A stretch of 20,139 nt of DNA, from assembly GCA_044229975.1 (NCBI GenBank), contig JBGARZ010000009.1:411947-432085 (forward strand). Direction: 5' to 3'. Of the stretch, positions 4,575-16,636 are shown one piece after another (position 1 is the stretch's first letter; each line of letters starts with the position of its first letter). The notes under the pieces were generated by a model. The model was not told the DNA's origin and did not search any database. It saw only the letters and a program-made list of their open reading frames with translations. The position numbers and the translations under genes were made by a program. This DNA comes from Polyangiales bacterium. GTDB lineage: Bacteria > Myxococcota_A > Polyangia > Polyangiales > Ga0077539.

Positions 4575-4594
4575 GCGTCCGGCAGTAGAGAGGG

Positions 4595-4728
4595 CCGCCA
4601 GGGCGCAAGGGTCGCAAGGAACGGATGGGGAGGGATTGGCGCGGTGTTCGGAGCAGCGGCTGACTACCGTTGAATCCAGCCCTCCCGTCCTTCCCCATCT
4701 GTTCCTTGCGACCCTTGCGCCCTGGCGG
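4595..4728. repeat. Inverted-repeat element with 40-bp arms (38/40 match) flanking a ~55-bp spacer.
   Basis: Left arm ccgccagggcgcaagggtcgcaaggaacggatggggaggg (4595-4634). Right arm ccttccccatctgttccttgcgacccttgcgccctggcgg (4689-4728) is its reverse complement with 2 mismatches. Imperfect extension to about 48 bp. It lies 20 bp after the stop of the 3909..4574 gene. Confidence 0.6.
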
Positions 4729-4764
4729 CTTTGTCTCTCGCGGTTTGTGGCCGCGTCGACCCGC

Positions 4765-7446: not shown

Positions 7447-8682
7447 GCGCGCGAGCAGGCTGCGCGCGATCTGCGACACCTGGATCTCGTCGGTGCCGCC
7501 GTAGATCTGGAGCACCTTGGCGTCGCGGCAGAGCTGCTCGACCTGATACTCGGCCATGTAGCCGTTGCCGCCGAAGAGCTGCACCGCCTCCAGGCAGACG
7601 TCCATGGTGGCCTGCGCCGTGTAGAGCTTGCACGCCGACGCCTCGGCCATGCTCATGGACTTCCCCGCCGCCGCCATCTCGATCTGGCGGAAGACGAGGT
7701 TGGTGATGTTCATGCGCGCGACCTCCATCTTCGCGAGCTTCAACTGGATGAGCTGAAACTCCCCGATGGGCTTGCCGAACTGCACCCGCGTCTTCGCGTA
7801 CTCCGTCGACAGCGCGAGGCACTGCTCGACGATGCCCAATGCCATTGCGGCCACGCCCGTTCGCTCCGACGCGAAGGTCTCCTTGGCCGCCGCGCGCGAC
7901 GGCGTGTCCTCGGTCTCGCCGATGAGGCGATCGACCCCCACGCGAACGTCTTCGAGGAAGAGCTCGCCCGTCGGTGAGCTGTGCATGCCCATCTTGCGAA
8001 GGGGCTTGCTCTGCACGAGGCCGGGCATGCCCTTCTCCAGCACGAAGCTCACGATCTTGCGCCGCTCGGGCGGGGTCTCCCCGTCGTCGAGCTTGCAGAT
8101 GAACACGATGGTGTCGGCGTACGGACCGTTGGTGATGAAGGTCTTGCTGCCGTTGAGGATGTAGCCGCCCTCACCATCGCGGCGCGCCGTGGACTTCATC
8201 CCGCCAAACGCGTCGGAGCCAGAGCCGGGTTCGGTGATGGCCCACGCCCCGATCTTGTCGAGGGTGAGCAGGTCGCGCGCCCAGCGCTCCTTCTGGCGGA
8301 TGGTTCCGCGGGACATGATGGCGGCGGCGGTGAGGCCGAGGCTCACGCCCATCGCGGTGATCATCCCGGGGCTGTACTTCGAGATCTCGATGACGGGGAT
8401 GAGCCGCAGACCGAGGTCCATTCCGCGGGGGGCGCGCTCCCTGGTGTCGTCGTCGGTGGGGGCGGCGCCGCTCTCGGCCTTCGCCTTCTCGCGAGCGATC
8501 TGCGCCTCGAACTGCCCGATGGCCATGTCGCGCACCCCAAACGATTCGAGGAACTTCCTCAGGATGTCGTACGGGAGCATGTCGCCGTGCTCCAGCGCTT
8601 CGAGGTTGGGCTTGATCTCGGCCTCCACGAAGCGACGGACGGCGTCACGGATGGCCTGATGGGTCTCGTTCCATTCGAACAT
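7444..8682 (-). CDS. Acyl-CoA dehydrogenase (412 aa).
   Basis: Start ATG at 8682-8680 (MFEWNETHQAIRDAVRRFVEAEI) with 'GGAGGA' 8 nt upstream. Canonical ACAD blocks 'GAWAITEPGSGSDA', 'YILNGSKTFITNG', 'QLFGGNGY' and 'YGGTDEIQ'. The upstream 390 codons of supplied ORF 7444..9852 are Arg/His-rich junk. Confidence 0.85.
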   Translation of the reverse strand: MFEWNETHQAIRDAVRRFVEAEIKPNLEALEHGDMLPYDILRKFLESFGVRDMAIGQFEAQIAREKAKAESGAAPTDDDTRERAPRGMDLGLRLIPVIEISKYSPGMITAMGVSLGLTAAAIMSRGTIRQKERWARDLLTLDKIGAWAITEPGSGSDAFGGMKSTARRDGEGGYILNGSKTFITNGPYADTIVFICKLDDGETPPERRKIVSFVLEKGMPGLVQSKPLRKMGMHSSPTGELFLEDVRVGVDRLIGETEDTPSRAAAKETFASERTGVAAMALGIVEQCLALSTEYAKTRVQFGKPIGEFQLIQLKLAKMEVARMNITNLVFRQIEMAAAGKSMSMAEASACKLYTAQATMDVCLEAVQLFGGNGYMAEYQVEQLCRDAKVLQIYGGTDEIQVSQIARSLLAR

Positions 8683-8755
8683 GGCGATGGGTCCTCCGCG
8701 ACGAACGATACAGGACTCCGTGAGCCCGCGAGGGCGACGCCCATTGCATCGCCTT

Positions 8756-8784
8756 CGTTGACAATACCGTCCATGACATACCGA
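8756..8784 (+). promoter_or_regulatory. Candidate sigma70-type promoter. A perfect TTGACA -35 hexamer sits at 8756-8761, with a weak -10 (ACCGAT/CCGATT) 16-17 bp downstream.
   Basis: Lies in the 132-bp divergent intergenic region between the dehydrogenase (start 8682, minus) and the lipoprotein gene (start 8815, plus). The -10 is poor. Confidence 0.2.
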
Positions 8785-8814
8785 TTCTGTTGAGCATCGG
8801 GCGGCGGTACAACG

Positions 8815-9741
8815 GTGCTCATGAACACCTCGTCGTCGCGTCGTGGCCTCTCGCTGGTGATGTTCGCGCTGCTCGCGACGGGTTGCGGGGCGTCGGTGTC
8901 GTCGGCGCCGGTGACGGTGGAGAGCGACGCCGGGAGCGTGGTGACGGACGCGCCGACGCCGGTCGCGCCGATGACGTGGCCGAGCTGTGCCGAGGTGCGG
9001 GCGACGTGCGGGGCCGAGCCGCAGCGCCTGGTGCGCGGACACGCCGAGGGGCTGACGGGGCTCGACGGCGCGCGGGTGCGCTTCGCGATGCGGTACATCC
9101 GCGAGGAGGGCAACGGGCTCAACGTTCCGCACGGCGTGGTGGTGGCGGGGGCCGAGGTGCGCGACGGGGCCTTCGAGGCGTGCGTGTGCATGCCGATGGG
9201 CGGCAACAACTACCCGCAGGTGGTGGCGGTGGTGTTTGCGCCGGGGACGACGGGGGAGACGAGCCGCGAGGTGGCGCGGGCGACGTTCAGCCAGCGCTAC
9301 GCGACGCTGGGCAGCGAGAACCTGTCGTACGCATTGAGCGGGGTGGCGTCGGCGCCGGTGGTGGAGGCATCGCTCGCGGGGCTGGTCGAGCGCGCGCACA
9401 CGGTGCGGGTGCGCGGCGTGGAGACGGCGGCGGCGATGGAGGGAAGGGTCTACGCGGGTCTGGTGGCCGACGAGCGGCCCGTGGCGGCGCAGGTGGTGAC
9501 GGGCGGCGCCGTCGAGGGCGGCGCGCTGGGCTTCGAGTGGATCATGCCGGGGCGCGAGTGGCCGAGCGAGCGCGTGGCGATGGTGGTCGACCGCAACGGC
9601 AACCGACGGTGTGACGAAGGGGACGTCGGCGCGACGGTGCGGCTCGATGGGCGGCGCGAGGTGGATGGCGTCGCGTGGGTGCAGGGCGACGCGCTGGCGG
9701 GCGTGTGCGCGGCGCTGCGGATGGAGTCGGAGCGGGAGTAG
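8815..9741 (+). CDS. Hypothetical lipoprotein (about 308 aa).
   Basis: GTG at 8815 or ATG at 8821. Signal peptide 'MNTSSSRRGLSLVMFALLATGC' with lipobox ATGC. No recognisable catalytic motif. Confidence 0.55.
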   Translation: MLMNTSSSRRGLSLVMFALLATGCGASVSSAPVTVESDAGSVVTDAPTPVAPMTWPSCAEVRATCGAEPQRLVRGHAEGLTGLDGARVRFAMRYIREEGNGLNVPHGVVVAGAEVRDGAFEACVCMPMGGNNYPQVVAVVFAPGTTGETSREVARATFSQRYATLGSENLSYALSGVASAPVVEASLAGLVERAHTVRVRGVETAAAMEGRVYAGLVADERPVAAQVVTGGAVEGGALGFEWIMPGREWPSERVAMVVDRNGNRRCDEGDVGATVRLDGRREVDGVAWVQGDALAGVCAALRMESERE

Positions 9742-9764
9742 CGGCGGGGTCGTTGCGCCCGGCT

Positions 9765-9887
9765 GCCGCGCACTGAAGTACGCGGCAACGTTGCGGACAT
9801 CGAGCATGGCACTGCAAGTCCGCTCTGCGGACTTTGCATGGAATTGCGTCATCCCTTCCGGCGTTGCCGCGTACTTCAGTGCGCGGC
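9765..9887. repeat. MITE-like element with perfect 26-bp terminal inverted repeats (gccgcgcactgaagtacgcggcaacg) flanking a 71-bp core that carries its own internal hairpin (gcaagtccgc-tct-gcggacttTgc).
   Basis: Arms at 9765-9790 and 9862-9887 are exact reverse complements. It lies between the convergent lipoprotein and kinase genes. Confidence 0.6.
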
Positions 9888-9931
9888 GACGAGCGCGACG
9901 GCACCCGAAAGAGTGGACGAATCAGGAGTCT

Positions 9932-11335
9932 CTACTCGACCGGGACGTGCTCGTGGGCCTGCGGGCGGACGGTGACCGCGGGCCGCGGCAACGGGCGCAA
10001 CACACGCGGCGCAACCCTCACCGGCGGACCTGCATCGACCACGAGCGCCTGCGTCGGGACCGCCACCGGAGGCGGTGACACGACGGGCGGAGGCGGAGGC
10101 GGCGGCGTCACCACCAGCGTCGGTGGCGGCGGCAGTGGCGCGTGGGCGGGCGCAGGCGCGGGGCTCGACGAGCCGACGAGGTACAGCGCCGTGAACGACA
10201 GGCCCGCGGTGGCGAGTGCCGCGGCGACGAGCAGCGGGGCGCGAGAGGGGCGCGGCGCGACGGACTGGGTGATGGGCTTGAGGGTGGTGGTGCGGTCGGG
10301 GGGCGGGCGCGGTCCGAGGACGGGCGCGGTGGTGAGGGCGTCCCAGCTCGCGGTGGCGGGGACGGCGGCGTCGAGGGCGCGGAGGAGGTCGCGCGCGTGC
10401 TGGAAGCGATCGGCCGGGCGCAGCGCGAGGGCGCGGGCGAGGACGGGCTCCCAGGGGCCGACGTCGAGGCCGAACTTCGCCGGGGTGGGGCGCGTGGCGG
10501 AGAGGACGTCGACGGTGAGGGCGGTGTTGTCGTCGCCGCGGAAGGGCGGGCCGTCGGTGAGCACCTCGACGAGGAGGAGCGCGAGGGCGTGGACGTCGGT
10601 CCAGGGGCCGGAGCGGGTCCCGCCGATCTGCTCGGGGGAGGCGTACGCGAGGGTGAAGGCGCGGAGGTCGGTGCGGGTGGCGGTCTCGCCGGAGGCGACG
10701 GTCTCGTCGAGGTCCATGGCCTTGGCGATGCCGAAGTCGAGGAGCTTCGGGGTGACGCCGTCGCGGGAGCGGGCGAGCATGACGTTGGCGGGCTTGAGGT
10801 CGCGGTGGGCGACGCCCTCGTCGTGCGCGATGGCGAGCGCCTCGAAGACCGGGCGCAGGAGCGCGAGGGCCTCAGCGGGAGGGCGGCCGGTGCGGTCGCG
10901 GCGGGCGTCGAGGATGGATTCGAGGGAGTCACCGTCGATCCATTCGAGGACGATCCAGGGGGCGGCGCCGCCTGATGGGAGGAGGCCGCCGCCGAAGTCG
11001 AGGACGCGGACGATGCCGGGGTGTTCGAGGCGGGCGATGGTGCGCGCCTCGAAGACGAACTTGTCGATGAACGACCGGCGGTGCGACTCCGGGATGGTCG
11101 ACGGGGTCTTGAGCACCTTGATGGCGACAGGCTTCTGGAGGGAGCGGTGGGTGGCCCGGTAGACGACGCCGAAGCCGCCCTCGGCGATGAGGGAGTGGAC
11201 GTCGTATTTGCCGTCGAGGCGGGTTCCCAGGAGGGAGAAGGGGTCGGTGGGGGCGGCGGGGGGCACGGCGGGGGTTAGTTGAATTGTTCGATGACGAAAG
11301 GGTTTGATACCGTTCCTGTGATCGGCCCAACACAA
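9932..11335 (-). CDS. Serine/threonine protein kinase (Hanks type). It has a C-terminal transmembrane segment and a proline-rich periplasmic tail.
   Basis: Motifs 'GGFGVVY', 'AIKVL', 'HRDLKPANVM', 'DFGIAK' and 'ASPEQ'. Transmembrane segment 'LLVAAALATAGLSFTALYLVG'. Poly-Pro tail. The supplied start is a TTG at 11335 that overlaps the upstream gene. A GTG at 11266-11264 (MPPAAPTDPFSLLG...) lies 9 nt after the upstream stop and is the more likely start. Confidence 0.85.
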   Translation of the reverse strand: MCWADHRNGIKPFRHRTIQLTPAVPPAAPTDPFSLLGTRLDGKYDVHSLIAEGGFGVVYRATHRSLQKPVAIKVLKTPSTIPESHRRSFIDKFVFEARTIARLEHPGIVRVLDFGGGLLPSGGAAPWIVLEWIDGDSLESILDARRDRTGRPPAEALALLRPVFEALAIAHDEGVAHRDLKPANVMLARSRDGVTPKLLDFGIAKAMDLDETVASGETATRTDLRAFTLAYASPEQIGGTRSGPWTDVHALALLLVEVLTDGPPFRGDDNTALTVDVLSATRPTPAKFGLDVGPWEPVLARALALRPADRFQHARDLLRALDAAVPATASWDALTTAPVLGPRPPPDRTTTLKPITQSVAPRPSRAPLLVAAALATAGLSFTALYLVGSSSPAPAPAHAPLPPPPTLVVTPPPPPPPVVSPPPVAVPTQALVVDAGPPVRVAPRVLRPLPRPAVTVRPQAHEHVPVE

Positions 11336-12138
11336 GGCGGATAGCGCGCGTCGGGAGCAACGATTTCCAATCTCAGCGAGTAACTACGTCCCGCGTCGAG
11401 TCGGTATAGTTCGTGACCGGTGATGTTTAGTGGTGTCCCCATAGGCGGCTCCGATACGAGGCGGACCGTGTAAGAGTTTCCATGGGTGTCGTTCGCGGCT
11501 ACGCTACTAAGGGGTACCGATGTAACCTCATAGTAGGCTGAGGCCGATGCCGTAAAGGCGATGCTGAACTGCGGCCCCATCAGCGGAATCGCCAAAACGG
11601 AAGGAGATGAGGGACATGGAACACTGATGCTATCTACTGTGGGACTCGTCGGCCTCCAACTCCCAATCACCACCTGCCTTCCCGCTGGTCGCGCTTCTAC
11701 CGCCGCAATCCTCGCCTCCAGCGCACCCGCGGCGGCCGTCGCCCGCCCGGCCTCCAACGCATACGGCACGGCGCCCAGCTTCGACCGCGGGAACGTCGTC
11801 CCCTCCACCTGCACCTCGGCCCACAGCTCCGGGTTCGCCCGCACCGCGCCGACACACGCCGCATCCAGCGCCACCCGGAATCGCCCGCCCGTGAACGTCG
11901 TCCCCACCGCGGTCGTCGAGCACACCGTCGCGCCCGCCGTGGCAGCGTCCCACAGCCGCACCGTGACGTTGCGCGCGCCTTCCACCGGGCGCCCGCCGTC
12001 ATTGAGCACACCGCCGTAGTACAGCGGGTTCACCGCCGGGACGCCGTCCGCTCGCGCTCGCCCGACGCGATAGGCGACAACGCCCACGACGAGACAAGCG
12101 CCAACGCTCCACACCAGGAGGGAGGAGGGTCTCTTCAT
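11275..12138 (-). CDS. Signal-anchored (N-terminal transmembrane) protein, paralogue A. It has a conserved N-terminal beta-rich domain ('VRLWDAATAG...GRFRVALD...ELWAEVQVEGTTFPRSKLGAVPYALEA') and a variable C-terminal domain.
   Basis: ATG at 12138-12136 with GGAG 9 nt upstream. The remainder of supplied ORF 11275..12423 lies inside the palindromic repeat and is not coding. Transmembrane helix 'LLVWSVGACLVVGVVAY'. About 90% identical over residues 20-150 to the gene at 12809..13675. Confidence 0.7.
   Translation of the reverse strand: MKRPSSLLVWSVGACLVVGVVAYRVGRARADGVPAVNPLYYGGVLNDGGRPVEGARNVTVRLWDAATAGATVCSTTAVGTTFTGGRFRVALDAACVGAVRANPELWAEVQVEGTTFPRSKLGAVPYALEAGRATAAAGALEARIAAVEARPAGRQVVIGSWRPTSPTVDSISVPCPSSPSVLAIPLMGPQFSIAFTASASAYYEVTSVPLSSVAANDTHGNSYTVRLVSEPPMGTPLNITGHELYRLDAGRSYSLRLEIVAPDARYPPCVGPITGTVSNPFVIEQFN
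11651..12050. repeat. Copy 1 of a ~400-bp direct nucleotide repeat (about 90% identity with 13179-13580). It covers the 5' coding part of paralogue A.
   Basis: Aligned by eye. Identity begins exactly at 'ggcctccaactcccaatcac', which encodes VIGSWRP, and runs toward the gene start. Confidence 0.7.
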
Positions 12139-12171
12139 ACGATAGGACTCCAGGTGGGCCTGACTTGAGGC

Positions 12172-12440
12172 GATGGGGAGTGGTTCAGGCCAGTGTGCGT
12201 CGCTGGGGTTCGGGCGCTGGCCCTCACCCCAGGCAATAACAAGCAGGCGCCCCGGACAGGGTCCGGGGCTTTCGACCAGGAACTCGTTGAAGCCAATGAC
12301 ACCATGCGAGATCCGCGTCGTAAGACCCATCGAGTGTCGGTTCGAAAGCCCCGGACCAGTCCGGGGCGCCCGCTTGTTATTGCCTGGGGTGAGGGCCAAC
12401 GCCCGAACCCCAGCGACGCACACTGGCCTGAACCACCATC
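12172..12440. repeat. Large composite palindrome. Arms of ~100 bp (about 96% identity) flank a ~65-bp centre. Each arm ends in an 8-bp GC hairpin (ccccggac-agg-gtccgggg) followed by CTTTCGA.
   Basis: Left arm 12172-12275 and right arm 12341-12440 are reverse complements with 3-4 mismatches. The palindrome also appears as mirrored 'proteins' in supplied ORFs 12173..12709(+), 12193..12666(+) and 12135..12875(-). Confidence 0.6.
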
Positions 12441-12491
12441 AAGCGACGTCCCGACCTCGCGCATCCCGTCGACGAGCATCCACTCACGCTC

Positions 12492-12718
12492 GCCCAATGC
12501 GTCCTTACCCGAGGGGGCGCTCCCGCCCAGGCCCTCCCAGCGCGTCCTTACCCGAAGGGACGCGACCGCCCACGTCAGCGGTATCCGGTCTCCGTCGGGA
12601 AGCTCGACGCGCGCCGGATCGGACCTCCGCGAACGCGAACGTAGGTGGTCGCGTCCCTTCGGGTAAGGACGCGTTGGGAGGGCCTGAGTGCGAGCACCCC
12701 TTCGGGTGAGGGCGCATT
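12492..12718. repeat. Second nested palindrome, a REP/BIME-like cluster. Four copies of a ~24-nt hairpin unit (cgcgtccttacccgaagggacgcg and variants) are arranged as two inverted pairs.
   Basis: 12539-12572 is the reverse complement of 12643-12678 (2 mismatches). 12492-12522 is roughly the reverse complement of 12688-12718. Each unit contains a cUUCGg or GAA-loop hairpin. Confidence 0.5.
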
Positions 12719-12808
12719 GGGACAGCCCGGGTGAATGGGCTGTTGAACGGAGACGCGGAGCCGATGCGCTCAAATGGTCAACCCGCAAGAGGCAGTCGTG
12801 AGCATCCA

Positions 12809-13675
12809 TCACTCCAACTGCTCCGCCATCATGGGCCTTCGCGCGAAGAACTCCGTAGCCGGACTCGTTCGACATGCCACGTCCGCACGCATCTCTACGA
12901 AGAACGAGTATTCTCTTCCAGTTTCAAGACGAAAGACGGCTTCAAGTCGATCTCCGATCTCACTCCTATCAAACACCAAAGCAGCAGGAACACTCGAAGC
13001 CAGCCGCGTAAACCCAAGCGCAACCGTATTTTCTGCCGGTGCCGATACCCGATACAATCCGGCCGATGATGCAGTGAAGGTCAACGAGAACGGTTCACCC
13101 CCGATCCTCACATACGAGGTCGCGGGAGGCGGCGTCGTTGGACAGATAACGGGGAAGGTAACTGCTGTCGGCGTAGCCGGCCTCCAACTCCCAATCACGA
13201 CTTGTCTCGTCGCAGTTCTCCCCTCCACCGCCGCAATCCTCGCCTCCAGCGCCCCAGTCGCACCCGCCGCGCTCACCGCCCTCCCGGCCTCCAACGCATA
13301 CGGCACCGCGCCCAGCTTCGACCGCGGGAACGTCGTCCCCTCCACCTGCACCTCGGCCCACAGCTCCGGGTTCGCCCGCACCGCACCGACGCACGCCGCG
13401 TCCAGCGCCACCCGGAAGCGCCCGCCCGTGAACGCCGTCCCCGCCGCGCTCGTCGTGCACACCGCCGCGCCCGCCGTCGCCGCATCCCACAGCCGCACCG
13501 TCACGGCCCGCACGCCCTCCACCGGGCGCCCGCCGTCACTCAACACACCGCCGTAGTACAGCGGGTTCATCGCCGGAACACCGTCCGCCCGCGCCTTCCC
13601 CAGCCGATACGCCGCGACCATGCCCACAACGGACAACGCCGCGGCGCCCAGCACCACGCCCCGCCGCGCCTTCAC
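12809..13675 (-). CDS. Signal-anchored protein, paralogue B. It has the same conserved N-terminal domain as 11275..12138 and a diverged but homologous C-terminal domain.
   Basis: GTG start at 13675-13673 (MKARRGVVLGAAALSVVGMVAAY...) overlaps the TGA of the upstream gene as GTGA. An ATG at 13714 is an alternative. Transmembrane helix present. 'AVPYALEA' block. Confidence 0.7.
   Translation of the reverse strand: MKARRGVVLGAAALSVVGMVAAYRLGKARADGVPAMNPLYYGGVLSDGGRPVEGVRAVTVRLWDAATAGAAVCTTSAAGTAFTGGRFRVALDAACVGAVRANPELWAEVQVEGTTFPRSKLGAVPYALEAGRAVSAAGATGALEARIAAVEGRTATRQVVIGSWRPATPTAVTFPVICPTTPPPATSYVRIGGEPFSLTFTASSAGLYRVSAPAENTVALGFTRLASSVPAALVFDRSEIGDRLEAVFRLETGREYSFFVEMRADVACRTSPATEFFARRPMMAEQLE
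13179..13580. repeat. Copy 2 of the ~400-bp direct repeat, covering the 5' coding part of paralogue B.
   Basis: See copy 1. It is also the source of the mirrored antisense ORFs 11561..12019(+) and 12774..13556(+). Confidence 0.7.
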
Positions 13676-14028
13676 GGCAACAACCCTCCCGTCAAACACA
13701 GCGTCCCCACGCATCCCGGTGCGCCCACCTCGAAGCCCGTCTCGCTCAGCTCCAGCGTCCCCATCGTGACGCTCCCGCCGCTCGTCGTCGCGATCCCCTG
13801 CGCCTGCATCACCAGCCCCGTCGCGCCTCCACCGTCGTCCGGCGTCCCCGCGTCACCCGTCACGTCACCCGTCGCATCCCCCATCACCCCGCGATCGCCC
13901 AACGCGCCATCAACCATCGCCGCCCCGACGTCCATCACCGCCGCGTCGCGCCTCGGTCGGTACACCCACTCCTCATCGGAGCACCCCGCCACCAGCACCG
14001 CGGCCACCGCCCACCGCGCCGCCTTCAC
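13672..14028 (-). CDS. Small Gly/Asp-rich lipoprotein (about 118 aa).
   Basis: GTG at 14028-14026 overlaps the upstream TGA as GTGA. Signal peptide 'KAARWAVAAVLVAGC' with lipobox LVAGC. Its stop overlaps the next start as GTGA again. Confidence 0.5.
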   Translation of the reverse strand: MKAARWAVAAVLVAGCSDEEWVYRPRRDAAVMDVGAAMVDGALGDRGVMGDATGDVTGDAGTPDDGGGATGLVMQAQGIATTSGGSVTMGTLELSETGFEVGAPGCVGTLCLTGGLLP

Positions 14029-15038
14029 AGCACGCCACCCACCGCGAGCCCGTTGCCCGTCGGAACCACCCACGTCGTCGGTCGCCCCTCCGCCGCGCTC
14101 CCCCCGCTCGCCCGCGCCACCAGAAACCACACCACCCCGCCCGCCACCATCGCGCTGCCGACCCCGATGGCCACGTTGGTCCCCGTCGTGAACCCGCGCA
14201 TCCGCTCGTCCGCGTCGATGGACGACGCGTCACACCCACCCGCGTCGCACGCCCCGTCGCGCTCGCTCATCGCGCCGCCGTGCATCCCCCACAGCACGCC
14301 CGCACCCACGAAGGCCGCCGCCCCGACGCCCGCCAACACCCACGGCCCGGCGCCCACCCCGCGACGCACCGGCCCCTCCGCCGGCGCCACCGCCCTCGGC
14401 GCTTCCACCACGGTCCGCGGCGCCGGTCGCACCACCGCATCCGCGGCTCTCGGCGCGTCAAGCGCGACCTCGGCGCTCGCTCCCGCGGTCACCGTCACCG
14501 TCACCGTCTGCGCGTGATGGAGCGCCTCGTCGCTCACGCGCACCGTCACCTCGCCCGGATCAACCGGCACCGCCACGCCCCACGCCGCCGCGGGCAGCTC
14601 GCGACCGCCGACGGTTACCGCCGCGTTCGTGAGCCCGGCCGGAACGCGCACCGTCAGCCGCCCGACCCGCCCCGAGAGAGCCCCCGTGAGCTCGCGACAG
14701 ATGCCGAGGATGCGATCGCGGTTGCGCAGGGCCGCGTCGGCGGTGGCGTCGGCGGTGCAGCGTCGCGCGTGATCGAGCGCCGTGACGAAGTGCCCGAGCT
14801 GCTCATGTTCCTGCGCGAGCAGGAGCGCCAGCGACGGCGTCATCCGCAGGGCCGCCGCGCGACCGGCGAGCTCCGCGGCCTGCGCGTGGTCGCCCGCCTC
14901 ACGGGCGCGCTCGGCCTGCGCGACGAGGTCACGCCGTAGCGCGTCGGTGTCGGTCTGCGCGAGCGCCGTCGAGGTGGTCGTGAGCAGCGCGACCGCACAC
15001 ATGACCGAGCGCGCCCACCGTCCGATCGTCCCGCTCAT
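14025..15038 (-). CDS. Secreted, membrane-anchored hypothetical protein. It has a signal peptide, a helical (TPR-like) N-terminal region, a beta-rich PEGA-like middle, and two C-terminal transmembrane helices.
   Basis: ATG at 15038. Signal peptide 'MSGTIGRWARSVMCAVALLTTTSTALAQ'. Segment 'LTVRVPAGLTNAAVTVGGRELP...GEVTVRV' resembles a PEGA-type beta-sandwich. Hydrophobic segments 'GPWVLAGVGAAAFVGAGVLWGM' and 'VAIGVGSAMVAGGVVWFLVA'. Confidence 0.55.
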   Translation of the reverse strand: MSGTIGRWARSVMCAVALLTTTSTALAQTDTDALRRDLVAQAERAREAGDHAQAAELAGRAAALRMTPSLALLLAQEHEQLGHFVTALDHARRCTADATADAALRNRDRILGICRELTGALSGRVGRLTVRVPAGLTNAAVTVGGRELPAAAWGVAVPVDPGEVTVRVSDEALHHAQTVTVTVTAGASAEVALDAPRAADAVVRPAPRTVVEAPRAVAPAEGPVRRGVGAGPWVLAGVGAAAFVGAGVLWGMHGGAMSERDGACDAGGCDASSIDADERMRGFTTGTNVAIGVGSAMVAGGVVWFLVARASGGSAAEGRPTTWVVPTGNGLAVGGVL

Positions 15039-15127
15039 CGGGGCAGGAAGGTAGTCGCGGCGGCGGGCGACCGTCTACCCGGGACGGACCCTCCGATGCG
15101 CCACCACCCACGCGACCCGCCGACCCT

Positions 15128-15325
15128 TCACTTCCGACCGCGCTTCTCGTACGCCCCGATCATCGCTTTCAGCTTCACCGCCCGCGCCTCGCTCGCGCCC
15201 CGCGTGTGCCGCGTCGAGACGATCGCCAGCGCGATCTCGTACGCGGCCAGCACCGCGGCGAGGCCCGCAGCGATGGTGGCAGCGATCGGAGCGGTCGGAG
15301 CAGCGGTAGTGGTTCGCTTCATCAT
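15128..15325 (-). CDS. Possible small membrane protein (65 aa, MMKRTTTAAPTAPIAATIAAGLAAVLAAYEIALAIVST...EKRGRK). A plus-strand ORF 15096..15398 is a competing reading of the same positions.
   Basis: High third-position GC, but the third positions coincide with the plus frame. The plus ORF's TGA overlaps the fic ATG as ATGA. Neither has a good Shine-Dalgarno sequence. Confidence 0.2.
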   Translation of the reverse strand: MMKRTTTAAPTAPIAATIAAGLAAVLAAYEIALAIVSTRHTRGASEARAVKLKAMIGAYEKRGRK

Positions 15326-15346
15326 CAATGTGCTCAAGGTCCGCTG

Positions 15347-15370
15347 GGCGACGCTACCCGACGCGTCGCC
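15347..15370. promoter_or_regulatory. 8-bp inverted repeat GGCGACGC-n8-GCGTCGCC 25 bp upstream of the fic ATG. An adjacent GCGATacgATCGC repeat follows. Candidate operator.
   Basis: Seen in the sequence, in the 5' region of the Fic gene. Confidence 0.2.
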
Positions 15371-15394
15371 GTGTCGCGATACGATCGCCGCTCG

Positions 15395-16636
15395 ATGATC
15401 TTCGCGGCGCGACAGCTCCCATGGTCCGTGGTCGACCCGGCGGGCATCCCCTTCGACCCGGCGCCCGCGTACGCCATCGCCCGCAAGCACTTCGCGGCGT
15501 TGTCTTCCACCGACCGCGTCCACGCCGCCCACGGTCACTACCACCTCGACCTCGACCTCATCACCCACTACGGCGCCTGGGCCTCCGGCTGGGACTGGAC
15601 CTCCTCCTACGGCGGCCCCCTCTCCCCTCCCGACGCCACCGACCACGCCGACGCCTGGGTCCAGCGCACCGTCACCTCGCTCGTGCGCTGGCGAGAGTTT
15701 CTCGAAGAGCTCGCCCTGCTCCAGATGTCCCTTCGCGAAGAGACCGACGGCCTCCCGCTCGCAGACCGCATCGAGCACGCCGCCGCCCGCTACCTCCCGC
15801 TCGTGCTCGACCTCACCGGCGCCACCGCCGAATGGTATGTGACCTTCAAGGTCGCCTTGCGATGGCACGTCGAGTCGCTCGGCGTCGTCGACCCGCGCGT
15901 CGCACGCGTCATCGGTGACGTCGTCTCGGGTGTGTTCGAGAGCTGGTGCGCTCCGTCGAGCGCCACCGCCGCGTCGACGTGCGCCGAGCTCGGACTCCGC
16001 GTCGGCGAACTGAACGCGAGCCCCGTCAAACTCGGCGACGCCCTCGCCCGCTGGTGGACGCGACGCGCCGAGACCACCTGGCACAAGCCCCGCTCACGAC
16101 AACCTGGTCCCGTCACCACCGACGGACACCGCGCCTTCATCGAGCGACGCGACGCCGCCCGCTCGGCCGATCGCGCCCGCCACATGAACGACGCGCTCAC
16201 GTTCATCCGGGCGGAGGCCAACGCGCAGCGACCGCTCTCGTGGACGATGCTCCGCGAGGCGCAGCGACACGTGCTCGGCGTTGCGTCGGTGGACTTTCGC
16301 GACGGCGACGCCTTCGCCCACCACGGGCGCGAGCGCTACGCCCTCGGCGCCGACACCTTCGAACGCTTCGAGAACTGCCTCGCCAACGCAGCCCGCCCGT
16401 CGCTCCCGCCGCTCGCGAGGGCAGCGCGCGTGTACCTCGACGTCTGCTTCGTGCACCCCTTCGCCGACGGCAACGCCCGCGCCGCGCGCCTCGCGCTCGA
16501 CCACGTGCTCACCACCGCCGGGCTCGCGCTGCACACCGCGGAGCCGGTGTTTCTCCTACCGCGCCGCGCCGACGACCCGATGAACGGCGCCAACCTGATG
16601 TACCTGCTCGATCAGCTCTCGAGTCCGACCCGCTGA
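15395..16636 (+). CDS. Fic/Doc family protein, a putative AMPylase/adenylyltransferase. It carries a variant active-site motif, HPFADGNARAAR.
   Basis: C-terminal 'DVCFVHPFADGNARAARLALDHVL' matches the Fic signature HPFx[DE]GNGRxxR with the second Gly replaced by Ala. ATG at 15395. The upstream part of supplied ORF 15206..16636 is Arg/Gly junk. The ~300 aa N-terminal region is unrecognised. Confidence 0.7.
   Translation: MIFAARQLPWSVVDPAGIPFDPAPAYAIARKHFAALSSTDRVHAAHGHYHLDLDLITHYGAWASGWDWTSSYGGPLSPPDATDHADAWVQRTVTSLVRWREFLEELALLQMSLREETDGLPLADRIEHAAARYLPLVLDLTGATAEWYVTFKVALRWHVESLGVVDPRVARVIGDVVSGVFESWCAPSSATAASTCAELGLRVGELNASPVKLGDALARWWTRRAETTWHKPRSRQPGPVTTDGHRAFIERRDAARSADRARHMNDALTFIRAEANAQRPLSWTMLREAQRHVLGVASVDFRDGDAFAHHGRERYALGADTFERFENCLANAARPSLPPLARAARVYLDVCFVHPFADGNARAARLALDHVLTTAGLALHTAEPVFLLPRRADDPMNGANLMYLLDQLSSPTR

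What the first reader, a model, noticed from the sequence alone, without database searches (positions are those of the whole stretch)
11275..13675. Tandem paralogue pair with a homogenised 5' region and divergent C-terminal domains, split by a palindrome cluster
Genes A (11275-12138) and B (12809-13675) both encode N-terminally anchored proteins. About 400 bp of their 5' coding sequence is near-identical (11651-12050 versus 13179-13580, about 90%). The identity stops abruptly at the VIGSWRP codons. After that point the C-terminal ~110 aa are only distantly related, sharing blocks such as PxxCP, F[ST][LI][TA]FTAS and GRxYS. Such a sharp boundary is what gene conversion or recombination across a fixed junction would leave, not uniform divergence after duplication. 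This architecture recalls receptor-binding or cassette-variable surface proteins. The conserved domain carries the 'LWAEVQVEG...PRSKLGAVPYALEA' beta-repeat seen in so-called tail-fibre-like proteins of predatory and gliding bacteria. Gene A is also immediately followed (9 nt) by a Ser/Thr kinase.
Basis: partly seen in the sequence, partly recalled or inferred. Interest (0 to 1): 0.7.

Follow-up and report, generated by a model that had tools for sequence, protein, structure and literature searches.

The report
Swappable-head envelope proteins beside a kinase
Two neighbouring genes of a myxobacterium-like genome encode small anchored proteins that share a conserved stalk kept alike by recombination, but carry different, exchangeable TNF/C1q-like heads, and they sit in a conserved gene cluster with a Ser/Thr kinase; it is a new, uncharacterised example of the "constant base, swappable tip" design known from phage and Bdellovibrio fibres.

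Summary
Genes A (11275-12138) and B (12809-13675), both on the minus strand, share a ~410-nt block at 86-89% identity. Identity falls to ~50% right after the VIGSWRP codons, and also upstream in the signal/anchor codons.

The step holds at synonymous sites: dS is 0.18-0.20 in the block, above 1.2 in the anchor and above 2 in the head. Differing protein constraint therefore does not explain it; it is a recombination boundary.

A close syntenic relative (flanks 92-96% identical) keeps the same tandem pair and palindromes. Its A gene, however, carries a head unrelated at nucleotide level, replaced between the neck and the last codons. Other genomes hold one, three or five copies with shuffled anchor/head combinations.

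The proteins have no Pfam or NCBIfam match. Models show an anchor helix, a beta-sandwich, a helical neck and a jelly-roll head. The head's best structural matches are phage receptor-binding heads and TNF/C1q-like tips, with modest scores.

The stalk domain defines a very large family (22,665 clusters). Relatives carry C1q, BclA, tail-collar, S74 or lectin tips.

Heads have GC3 of ~0.57 against ~0.88 in the stalk. The cluster p337-lipoprotein-fibre(s)-Ser/Thr kinase is conserved.

Function is inferred: ligand recognition, possibly feeding the kinase. I rate it a new variant of a known kind.

The parts
14025..15038 (-). p337: first gene of the conserved cluster. It has a signal peptide, a helical (TPR-like) region and C-terminal hydrophobic segments. 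No family match.
   Evidence: ORF. No significant Pfam or NCBIfam hit. Homologue directly upstream of the lipoprotein and fibre genes in L001, L002, L003, L004, L020 and L021, and next to a kinase in L007 and L014.
13672..14028 (-). Small lipoprotein gene (118 aa, lipobox LVAGC). Its GTG start overlaps the p337 stop, and its stop overlaps the GTG start of B (GTGA in both cases).
   Evidence: Sequence read. Homologues in the same position in related loci.
12809..13675 (-). Gene B (288 aa). It is the family member in the position that is occupied in all related loci, directly coupled to the lipoprotein gene.
   Evidence: Identical to database protein P0016 apart from the start residue. Orthologue at L020:8476-9342.
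13586..13675 (-). B-type signal/anchor codons (residues 1-30). These are not part of the shared block.
   Evidence: dS vs A is about 1.2-2. All 16 informative sites group A with A and B with B across the two genomes. The same anchor type is found with many different heads.
13178..13585 (-). B copy of the conserved block: beta-sandwich domain plus helical neck, ending in VIGSWRP.
12812..13177 (-). B head cassette (122 aa), GC3 0.56.
   Evidence: The orthologue in L020 is under purifying selection (omega 0.19), with dS of 0.46 against 0.15-0.19 in flanking genes.
12477..12737 (.). Palindromic element P2: a 261-nt hairpin built from four ~43-nt REP-like units (two direct, two inverted).
   Evidence: I1, D5. 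(dG -213 kcal/mol; 90% identical in L020; sub-motif in other intergenic sites of L021, L022, L023 and L003). (4 motif copies vs 0.04 expected). No Rfam match.
12180..12436 (.). Palindromic element P1: a 257-nt near-perfect hairpin.
   Evidence: I2: 88-nt arms, 93%. (dG -233 kcal/mol; present in L020 at ~75%).
11275..12138 (-). Gene A (287 aa), with its own GGAG ribosome-binding site 9 nt upstream of the ATG.
   Evidence: Identical to database protein P0001.
12049..12138 (-). A-type signal/anchor codons (residues 1-30). These are not part of the shared block.
   Evidence: The A-type anchor occurs with at least 5 different heads in other genomes.
11650..12048 (-). A copy of the conserved block: beta-sandwich residues ~40-120 with two invariant Cys, and neck helix 124-149.
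   Evidence: Sub-segment 11749-11856 is 97% identical to B, against 91% between orthologues.
11278..11649 (-). A head cassette (124 aa), GC3 0.57, modelled as a jelly-roll beta-sandwich.
   Evidence: The region about 11293-11740 has no nucleotide-level counterpart in the orthologous gene of L020. The same head type sits in L021 behind a B-type anchor (omega 0.07).
9932..11266 (-). Ser/Thr protein kinase with one transmembrane segment and a Pro-rich C-terminal tail. It starts 8 nt after A's stop.
   Evidence: It directly follows the last fibre gene in L001, L002, L003, L020, L021 and L008.

Best explanation
A and B are tandem members of a very large, uncharacterised family of small extracytoplasmic proteins. 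Each is built as an N-terminal signal/anchor helix, a conserved beta-sandwich, a short alpha-helical neck and a variable jelly-roll (TNF/C1q-like) head.

The identity step is a recombination boundary. The ~400-nt stalk block stays similar among paralogues and among genomes through homologous exchange. Together with the conserved last codons and the downstream gene, it provides the homology arms through which whole head cassettes are replaced.

Heads are discrete, old types. Each is under purifying selection, and each has its own low-GC composition.

Unequal exchange between stalk blocks would also explain the variation in copy number (1 to 5 in a row).

Shown: the anatomy, the synonymous-site step, a head replacement between close relatives, the mosaic combinations and the conserved gene cluster.

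Inferred: the heads bind external ligands as trimers, and the proteins work with the co-transcribed membrane Ser/Thr kinase, p337 and the lipoprotein as a recognition/signalling module.
For: Step at synonymous sites:
- A vs B dS is 0.18-0.20 in the block, 1.2-2.0 in the anchor codons and 2.1-2.9 in the head.
- Third-position identity is 0.83 inside vs 0.25 outside, with 0/200 permutations reaching it.

This is not a matter of constraint. The core/anchor dS ratio is 0.6-0.8 in three orthologue pairs and 4.7 in a fourth: Aw-AL 0.38/0.57, Bw-L021 0.28/0.37, Bw-L004 0.28/0.44, Bw-BL 0.28/0.06. For tandem paralogues in three genomes it is 0.16-0.26: 0.20/1.24, 0.28/1.09 and 0.56/2.38.

Head replacement:
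- L020 (GCA_044228995.1) is syntenic, with flanks 92-96% identical. It has the same pair and the same palindromes.
- Window ~11293-11740 has no nucleotide homologue there.
- AL's head is 27% identical to A's, and its nearest heads (39-43%) sit on stalks only 70-75% identical.

Mosaics: the B-type anchor occurs with the A-type head in single-copy loci L021-L023 and L025. The A-type anchor occurs with at least 5 heads.

Heads are functional: omega is 0.19 (B type) and 0.07 (A type). Indels fall in loops, 69 of 75.

Fold:
- Full-length AF2 model has pLDDT 83.
- Head-only model has pLDDT 88 and pTM 0.79.

Family:
- The stalk profile finds 22,665 clusters at E<=1e-3.
- In 129 relatives the tips include C1q (7), tail Collar (6), FGE-sulfatase (3), BclA_C (3), S74 (2) and lectins.

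Cluster: p337-lipoprotein-fibre(s)-kinase is found in 7 loci. The kinase+p337+fibre association recurs in the distant loci L007 and L014, and kinase+fibre in L008. Start/stop overlaps couple the genes.
Against: - Trimerisation, location (inner-membrane anchored vs secreted) and any ligand are untested.
- A discrete recent A/B conversion tract is not statistically secure (run test p=0.08). No site supports the pattern expected if both genomes had homogenised their pairs (0 of 13 informative sites in the core).
- Higher dS in heads than in flanks (2.5-5x) could reflect relaxed synonymous constraint rather than old alleles.
- The kinase link rests on gene order only, and myxobacterial genomes carry many kinases.
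- No donor of the replaced head was identified.
Confidence: 0.7

Rival explanations
1. Intragenomic gene conversion only. A and B are old duplicates whose stalk block is repeatedly homogenised within this genome. The heads simply diverged in place, without cassette import or replacement.
For: Paralogue stalk dS (0.20) is the lowest of all comparisons for both A and B. Segment 11749-11856 is 97% identical between A and B against 91% for orthologues. The adjacent pair L001b/L001c behaves the same way (dS 0.28; run test p=0.014).
Against: The A head differs completely between two genomes whose flanks are 92-96% identical, while the B head is conserved between them. Head relationships are discordant with stalk relationships. 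The stalk is equally similar between genomes (dS 0.28-0.38), so the exchange is not purely intragenomic.
Confidence: 0.15
2. No recombination. The step only reflects a strongly constrained N-terminal domain next to a weakly constrained C-terminal domain after an old duplication.
For: The stalk is highly conserved at protein level family-wide, with 34 invariant columns in 71 sequences.
Against: The step is equally sharp at synonymous and third-codon positions. The anchor codons upstream are saturated between paralogues but not between orthologues. Heads are under purifying selection within a type (omega 0.07-0.19), so they are not weakly constrained.
Confidence: 0.04
3. A polymorphic toxin or contact-dependent competition locus (CdiA-CT/Rhs/SitA-like). 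On this view a conserved delivery domain carries a variable C-terminal toxin with a lower G+C, and tandem copies are spare toxin modules.
For: It has a conserved N-terminal part, a sharp junction at a conserved motif, a low-GC variable C-terminus and tandem copies.
Against: All heads share one beta-sandwich framework (TFTA, YRVS, AGxxYTF, terminal EQLN) and a jelly-roll model, not diverse enzyme folds. No small immunity-like gene follows either copy: palindromes follow B and the kinase follows A. There are no PADLOC, Pfam or NCBIfam toxin hits.
Confidence: 0.03
4. Targeted hypermutation. The heads are variable regions of a diversity-generating retroelement or a similar mutator.
For: Three of 129 family relatives carry the FGE-sulfatase/C-type-lectin fold typical of such targets.
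Against: The 20-kb window has no second copy of either head (template repeat), and no reverse-transcriptase domain was found among the ORFs scanned. Heads are stable between genomes, with omega 0.07-0.19. Differences are not confined to particular bases.
Confidence: 0.02
5. Assembly artefact. The tandem pair is a collapsed or chimeric join of two alleles in a metagenome-assembled genome.
For: The source appears to be a metagenome-derived contig. All relatives found are MAGs.
Against: An independent assembly (L020) has the same gene order, palindromes and B head. Tandem arrays recur in L001, L007 and L012. Each copy has its own start context.
Confidence: 0.01

Closest known systems
Bdellovibrio bacteriovorus MAT (mosaic adhesive trimer) fibres (Caulton et al. 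2024, PMC10769870)
   Different: A and B are 287-288 aa against 600-1150 aa. They have a 26-residue helix instead of long beta-prism/beta-helix shafts. They sit in a conserved cluster with a Ser/Thr kinase. Homology of the N-terminal domains was not tested. Surface display is unknown.
Receptor-binding proteins of lactococcal siphophages (Tuc2009, TP901-1, p2): shoulder, neck and exchangeable head
   Different: There is no sequence similarity to any phage record (tblastn) or PHROG. The window has no phage genes. A and B carry an N-terminal membrane anchor or signal.
C1q/TNF superfamily heads on coiled-coil or collagen stalks (C1q, cerebellin, BclA, ExsFA, Pgp3)
   Different: A and B themselves have no Pfam C1q or TNF match. 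The structural scores are modest. Trimer formation is untested.
TraA, the polymorphic kin-recognition receptor of Myxococcus (PMC6372800)
   Same: It is a myxobacterial envelope protein with a highly polymorphic recognition domain on a conserved remainder, with many specificity types in nature (abstracts).
   Different: TraA's variable domain is N-terminal. From my own knowledge it is PA14-like, followed by Cys-rich repeats and a MYXO-CTERM sorting signal. None of this is present here (no Pfam hit). TraA is not kinase-linked.
REP/BIME-type extragenic palindromes
   Same: P2 is built from four ~43-nt units in direct and inverted order. It is intergenic, and its sub-motif recurs at other intergenic sites in related genomes.
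   Different: The hairpins are far longer (257-261 nt) than classical REPs. Genome-wide copy number is unknown. There is no Rfam family.

Membership tests
Bdellovibrio MAT fibre superfamily | Shared invariable N-terminal domain homologous among members | not tested
   No MAT N-terminal sequence or structure was available in the tools; PDB entries hold only tips. The paper states that the domain has no PDB homologue.
Bdellovibrio MAT fibre superfamily | Long intertwined trimeric beta-prism/beta-helix shaft | tested here: not met
   The AF2 model of A shows only one helix (124-149) between the two beta-sandwiches. Total length is 287 aa.
Bdellovibrio MAT fibre superfamily | Variable, evolutionarily swapped C-terminal tip of adhesive fold (TNF-like, lectin, S74-capped) | tested here: met
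C1q/TNF superfamily | Sequence match to the C1q or TNF family models | tested here: not met
   No Pfam or NCBIfam hit for A or B at E<=0.1. BclA appears only at E 0.4-0.7 with a head profile.
C1q/TNF superfamily | Compact jelly-roll beta-sandwich of ~130 residues | tested here: inconclusive
C1q/TNF superfamily | Homotrimer about a three-fold axis | not testable with these tools
   Only monomer prediction is offered. The helical neck is compatible with a coiled coil, but this was not tested.
Polymorphic toxin systems (CdiA-CT, Rhs, SitA) | C-terminal domains of unrelated toxin folds | tested here: not met
   All heads align on one framework and model as one beta-sandwich.
Polymorphic toxin systems (CdiA-CT, Rhs, SitA) | Cognate immunity gene immediately downstream of each variable end | tested here: not met
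   B is followed by palindromes. A is followed after 8 nt by a conserved kinase.
Diversity-generating retroelement targets | Nearby template repeat and reverse transcriptase | tested here: not met
   No further copy of either head in the window. No reverse-transcriptase domain in the neighbouring ORFs scanned. The rest of the genome was not seen.
Silent-cassette antigenic variation (pilE/pilS type) | Promoter-less partial copies that donate sequence to an expressed gene | tested here: not met
   The head profile hits only the two full-length genes in the 20-kb window. The rest of the genome was not seen.
Eukaryotic-like Ser/Thr kinase (downstream gene) | Pkinase catalytic domain | tested here: met
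   PF00069 with E=1.7e-36, above the curated cut-off.

The most novel reading that the evidence does not exclude
The family would be a bacterial recognition system. Interchangeable TNF/C1q-like heads sit on a short membrane-anchored stalk and act as polymorphic ligand sensors (for prey, kin or phage surfaces). They would signal through the co-encoded sensor-less transmembrane Ser/Thr kinase with p337 and the lipoprotein. That would be a modular 'swap the head, keep the signalling base' receptor, widespread in Polyangia.

A second unusual reading concerns composition. The heads' stable low GC3 (0.57 in a genome with GC3 of ~0.9) may arise because allelic head types are too divergent to recombine internally and so escape GC-biased gene conversion. 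If so, each gene would be a within-gene natural experiment on what maintains high G+C in bacteria.
Probability: 0.25. Interest if true: 0.8.

Novelty: new variant of a known kind. Interest (0 to 1): 0.55.

Why it matters
If correct, it matters in four ways.

First, a family of more than twenty thousand sequence clusters with no database model gets an architecture and a testable role. It is a miniature, anchored version of the constant-base, swappable-tip fibres known from phages and Bdellovibrio.

Second, the conserved pairing with a sensor-less membrane Ser/Thr kinase suggests how some of the hundreds of orphan myxobacterial kinases might receive external input.

Third, the locus gives a clean example of head-cassette replacement between near-identical backgrounds, with mapped junctions.

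Fourth, the sharp and stable GC3 step inside single genes offers a direct way to ask whether recombination-linked bias or selection keeps these genomes GC-rich.

Tried and rejected
- Pfam, NCBIfam, PADLOC and PHROGs on A, B, p337 and the lipoprotein gave nothing. The kinase hits only generic kinase models, including PD-T4-6, which I did not read as a defence call.
- Rfam on the whole window gave no family for the palindromes.
- The sigma-70 promoter and intrinsic terminator scan of 11200-15300 found none.
- Exact look-up of protein A's contig found nothing on record. The source genome was not in the species-representative collection, so I could not search the rest of the genome for further copies or silent cassettes.
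- Foldseek of the full-length model against PDB gave nothing below E=0.01.
- tblastn of stalk plus head against 50,697 phage records gave no match.
- A Sawyer-type run test for a discrete A/B conversion tract gave p=0.08, which is not secure.
- I tried to read the single-copy gene of L021 as a B/A deletion hybrid using diagnostic sites. The pattern is explained as well by B-lineage-specific substitutions, so I draw no conclusion.
- Literature searches found no description of this family in Myxococcota.

Full report
**1. The observation**

The window is ~70% G+C. The finding lies in a run of minus-strand genes.
- Gene A (11275-12138) encodes 287 aa.
- Gene B (12809-13675, GTG start) encodes 288 aa.
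- Both begin with a hydrophobic helix followed by the invariant AYRxGRARADG motif.

A direct repeat of 300 nt at 89% links 11713-12012 and 13250-13549, and it has a weaker extension. In 30-nt bins, identity is 24-30/30 from A 12051 to about 11650 and 11-18/30 afterwards. It is also low in the first ~90 nt of the genes.

At third codon positions only, the best segment is A codons 34-171. Identity is 0.83 inside and 0.25 outside, and no permutation out of 200 reaches that contrast.

The two hairpins between the genes are real and very stable:
- 12180-12436, dG -233 kcal/mol
- 12477-12737, dG -213 kcal/mol

A Ser/Thr kinase starts 8 nt after A's stop.

**2. The step is a recombination boundary, not a difference in constraint**

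Nei-Gojobori estimates for A vs B:

| Region | dS |
|---|---|
| Beta-sandwich core | 0.18 |
| Neck | 0.60 |
| Signal/anchor codons | ~2.0 |
| Head | ~2.9 |

If the core were simply slow at silent sites, orthologues would show the same contrast. They do not.

Core/anchor dS in orthologue pairs:
- Aw-AL 0.38/0.57
- Bw-L021 0.28/0.37
- Bw-L004 0.28/0.44
- Bw-BL 0.28/0.06

Core/anchor dS in tandem paralogues, from three genomes:
- 0.20/1.24
- 0.28/1.09
- 0.56/2.38

So the duplication is old, because the anchors are saturated. The stalk block has been exchanged since then.

In the four-sequence comparison with the close relative L020, the anchor and the first third of the core group by orthology (25 informative sites to 0). 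In the last third of the core (A 11749-11856), A and B differ at 2.8% of sites against 8-9% for orthologues. A formal run test for a discrete tract is not significant (p=0.08). I therefore treat recent A/B conversion as likely but not proven.

**3. Direct evidence for head replacement**

L020 (GCA_044228995.1, contig JBGATW010000002.1) is syntenic, with flanking genes 92-96% identical. It has:
- the same p337 and lipoprotein genes;
- a B orthologue (8476-9342) that the public annotation misses;
- both palindromes;
- an A orthologue (P0024);
- the kinase.

Nucleotide identity runs at 80-96% through all of this, except window ~11293-11740. There it falls to background. The A head (and in this case the neck too) has been replaced. 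One junction lies just after PYALEAGRA and the other lies in the last five or six codons.

The replaced head is 27% identical to A's. Its nearest relatives (39-43%) sit on stalks only 70-75% identical, whereas stalks at least 89% identical carry heads at most 29% identical.

Conversely, the A-type head (76% identical, omega 0.07) is found in single-copy loci behind a B-type anchor (L021-L023, L025).

Across 82 relatives the stalk stays 62-97% identical, and at 81-97% in the closest relatives whose tails have already fallen to 27-50%. The A-type anchor occurs with at least five heads, and the B-type anchor with many.

Copy number varies:
- one copy in L002, L004 and L021;
- two in the window and L020;
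- three in L001 and L012;
- five in L007.

**4. What the proteins are**

No Pfam, NCBIfam, PADLOC or PHROG model matches A or B.

AlphaFold2 with a 71-sequence alignment gives pLDDT 83. It shows helix 7-21, a beta-sandwich at 40-120 with two invariant cysteines, helix 124-149, and a second beta-sandwich at 156-287.

- phage tail-fibre binding domains;
- then Eiger, EDA, ExsFA, cerebellin C1q and BclA.

The scores are modest, but the list is coherent: small trimeric jelly-roll heads.

All heads of this subfamily share a framework (Cys, TFTA, YRVS, AGxxYTF, Cys, terminal EQLN). Indels are concentrated in loops, 69 of 75 inserted columns.

A profile of the stalk domain finds 22,665 clusters at E<=1e-3 among 1.84 billion representatives, and 468 at E<=1e-30. 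Nearly all of the 150 best-scoring hits listed are proteins of 200-500 aa with the domain at residues ~30-155.

Among 129 of these, the C-terminal parts include C1q (7), phage tail Collar (6), FGE-sulfatase (3), BclA_C (3), Peptidase_S74 (2), H-type lectin, discoidin, Link and Gp53-like tail-fibre domains. Collagen repeats also occur.

The stalk is therefore a general base for adhesin-type or lectin-type tips.

**5. Heads are functional modules with their own composition**

Within a head type selection is purifying: omega is 0.19 for B vs its orthologue and 0.07 for A vs L021.

Head dS exceeds flank dS by 2.5-5 fold: 0.46 vs 0.15-0.19, and 2.2 vs 0.41-0.55. This means either older allelic lineages or freer synonymous sites.

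GC3 is 0.56-0.57 in both heads, 0.85-0.89 in the stalk and ~0.9 in neighbouring genes. GC1 and GC2 drop as well. The same drop is seen in every member of this subfamily that I examined in six other genomes, but not in more distant relatives with other tips.

Three-taxon singleton counts within a type show no drift back towards high G+C:
- B-type heads: 37 GC>AT vs 37 AT>GC.
- A-type heads: 63 vs 39.
- GC>AT fixations per GC site are about twice as frequent in heads as in stalks, while AT>GC per AT site is similar.

The counts are small and the method is crude. Even so, they argue against recent import from a low-GC donor followed by amelioration. They favour a locally different fixation regime. 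I could not resolve the cause.

**6. Context**

p337, the lipoprotein gene and B are joined by GTGA start/stop overlaps. A has its own GGAG site, and the kinase follows A by 8 nt.

The order p337-lipoprotein-fibre(s)-kinase is conserved in the window, L001 (with an extra p337-lipoprotein-fibre unit), L002, L003, L004, L020 and L021.

Deeper relatives (~40% stalk identity) again place fibres next to a kinase and p337 (L007, L014) or directly before a kinase (L008).

The kinase has one transmembrane segment and only a Pro-rich tail outside, so it has no sensor domain of its own.

The rest of the window holds ordinary chromosomal genes: acyl-CoA dehydrogenase, fatty-acid hydroxylase, lipase-like hydrolase, Fic and imelysin. 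No phage genes, reverse transcriptase or template repeat were found.

**7. The palindromes**

P2 is a compound of four ~43-nt units, two direct and two inverted. The motif occurs four times against 0.04 expected. Its sub-motif occurs at other intergenic sites in related genomes.

P1 and P2 are both present in L020, so they predate that split.

They are REP/BIME-like dispersed elements with no Rfam family. If B and A are co-transcribed, they would form very stable RNA hairpins between the two cistrons. Whether they act in transcript processing or in recombination is unknown.

**8. Mechanism proposed**

Shown:
- the modular anatomy;
- exchange of the stalk among paralogues;
- replacement of a head between near-identical backgrounds, at junctions inside conserved motifs;
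- shuffled anchor/head combinations;
- variable copy number;
- the conserved gene cluster.

Inferred:
- Head cassettes are replaced by homologous recombination. The arms are the ~400-nt stalk block on one side, and the conserved terminal codons plus the downstream sequence on the other.
- Unequal exchange between stalk blocks makes and removes tandem copies.
- The proteins are extracytoplasmic, given the signal/anchor and paired cysteines in both domains.
- They are probably trimeric and bind external ligands through the heads.
- The stalk docks to the cluster partners, so that recognition is passed to the kinase.

The last two steps rest on architecture and gene order only.

**9. Comparison and verdict**

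The design is the one described for Bdellovibrio MAT fibres (PMC10769870) and for phage receptor-binding proteins. A and B, however, are much shorter, lack a fibre shaft, are anchored and are kinase-linked. Homology of the base domains is untested.

They do not meet the defining features of polymorphic toxins, DGR targets, silent-cassette systems or TraA.

I rate the finding as a new variant of a known kind, in a large unannotated family.

Noticed in passing
window 11278-11649 and 12812-13177; also L001, L002, L004, L020, L021, L024, L025: GC3 drops from 0.85-0.89 to 0.56-0.57 inside single genes, exactly at the head boundary, in every genome of the subfamily. The substitution spectrum shows no return towards the genome's high G+C.
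   Followed up: partly
window 4587-4736: A third long hairpin element (60-nt arms, 83% complementary, dG -125 kcal/mol) lies in another intergenic region. It is unrelated in sequence to the two at 12180-12737.
   Followed up: no
L020 8476-9342 (GCA_044228995.1, JBGATW010000002.1): The B orthologue is not called in the gene calls held for this public record. Instead a 134-aa gene is called on the opposite strand (8592-8996), and a 242-aa ORF is called running through the palindromes (9276-10004).
   Followed up: partly
window 12135-12875 (-), 12173-12709 (+), 11275-12423 (-): The long palindromes create mirror-image spurious ORFs on both strands, with the same peptide strings read from either arm. 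Gene callers can mistake these for genes.
   Followed up: no
window 13672-14130: The lipoprotein gene's real start is GTG 14028 (118 aa, overlapping the p337 stop), not the upstream GTG 14130 of the mechanical ORF. The gene is ~100 nt shorter than its L020 orthologue, through an indel in its Gly/Asp-rich part.
   Followed up: partly
L001 5092-12194; L007 6535-15534; L012 1-2395: Related loci show other array states: p337-lipoprotein-fibre duplicated as a unit (L001), five fibre genes in a row after kinase-p337 (L007), and three fibres within 2.4 kb (L012).
   Followed up: partly
window 15206-16636 (+): A 476-aa protein with a C-terminal Fic/DOC domain sits next to the cluster on the opposite strand and is conserved in L020. 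No link to the cluster was examined.
   Followed up: no
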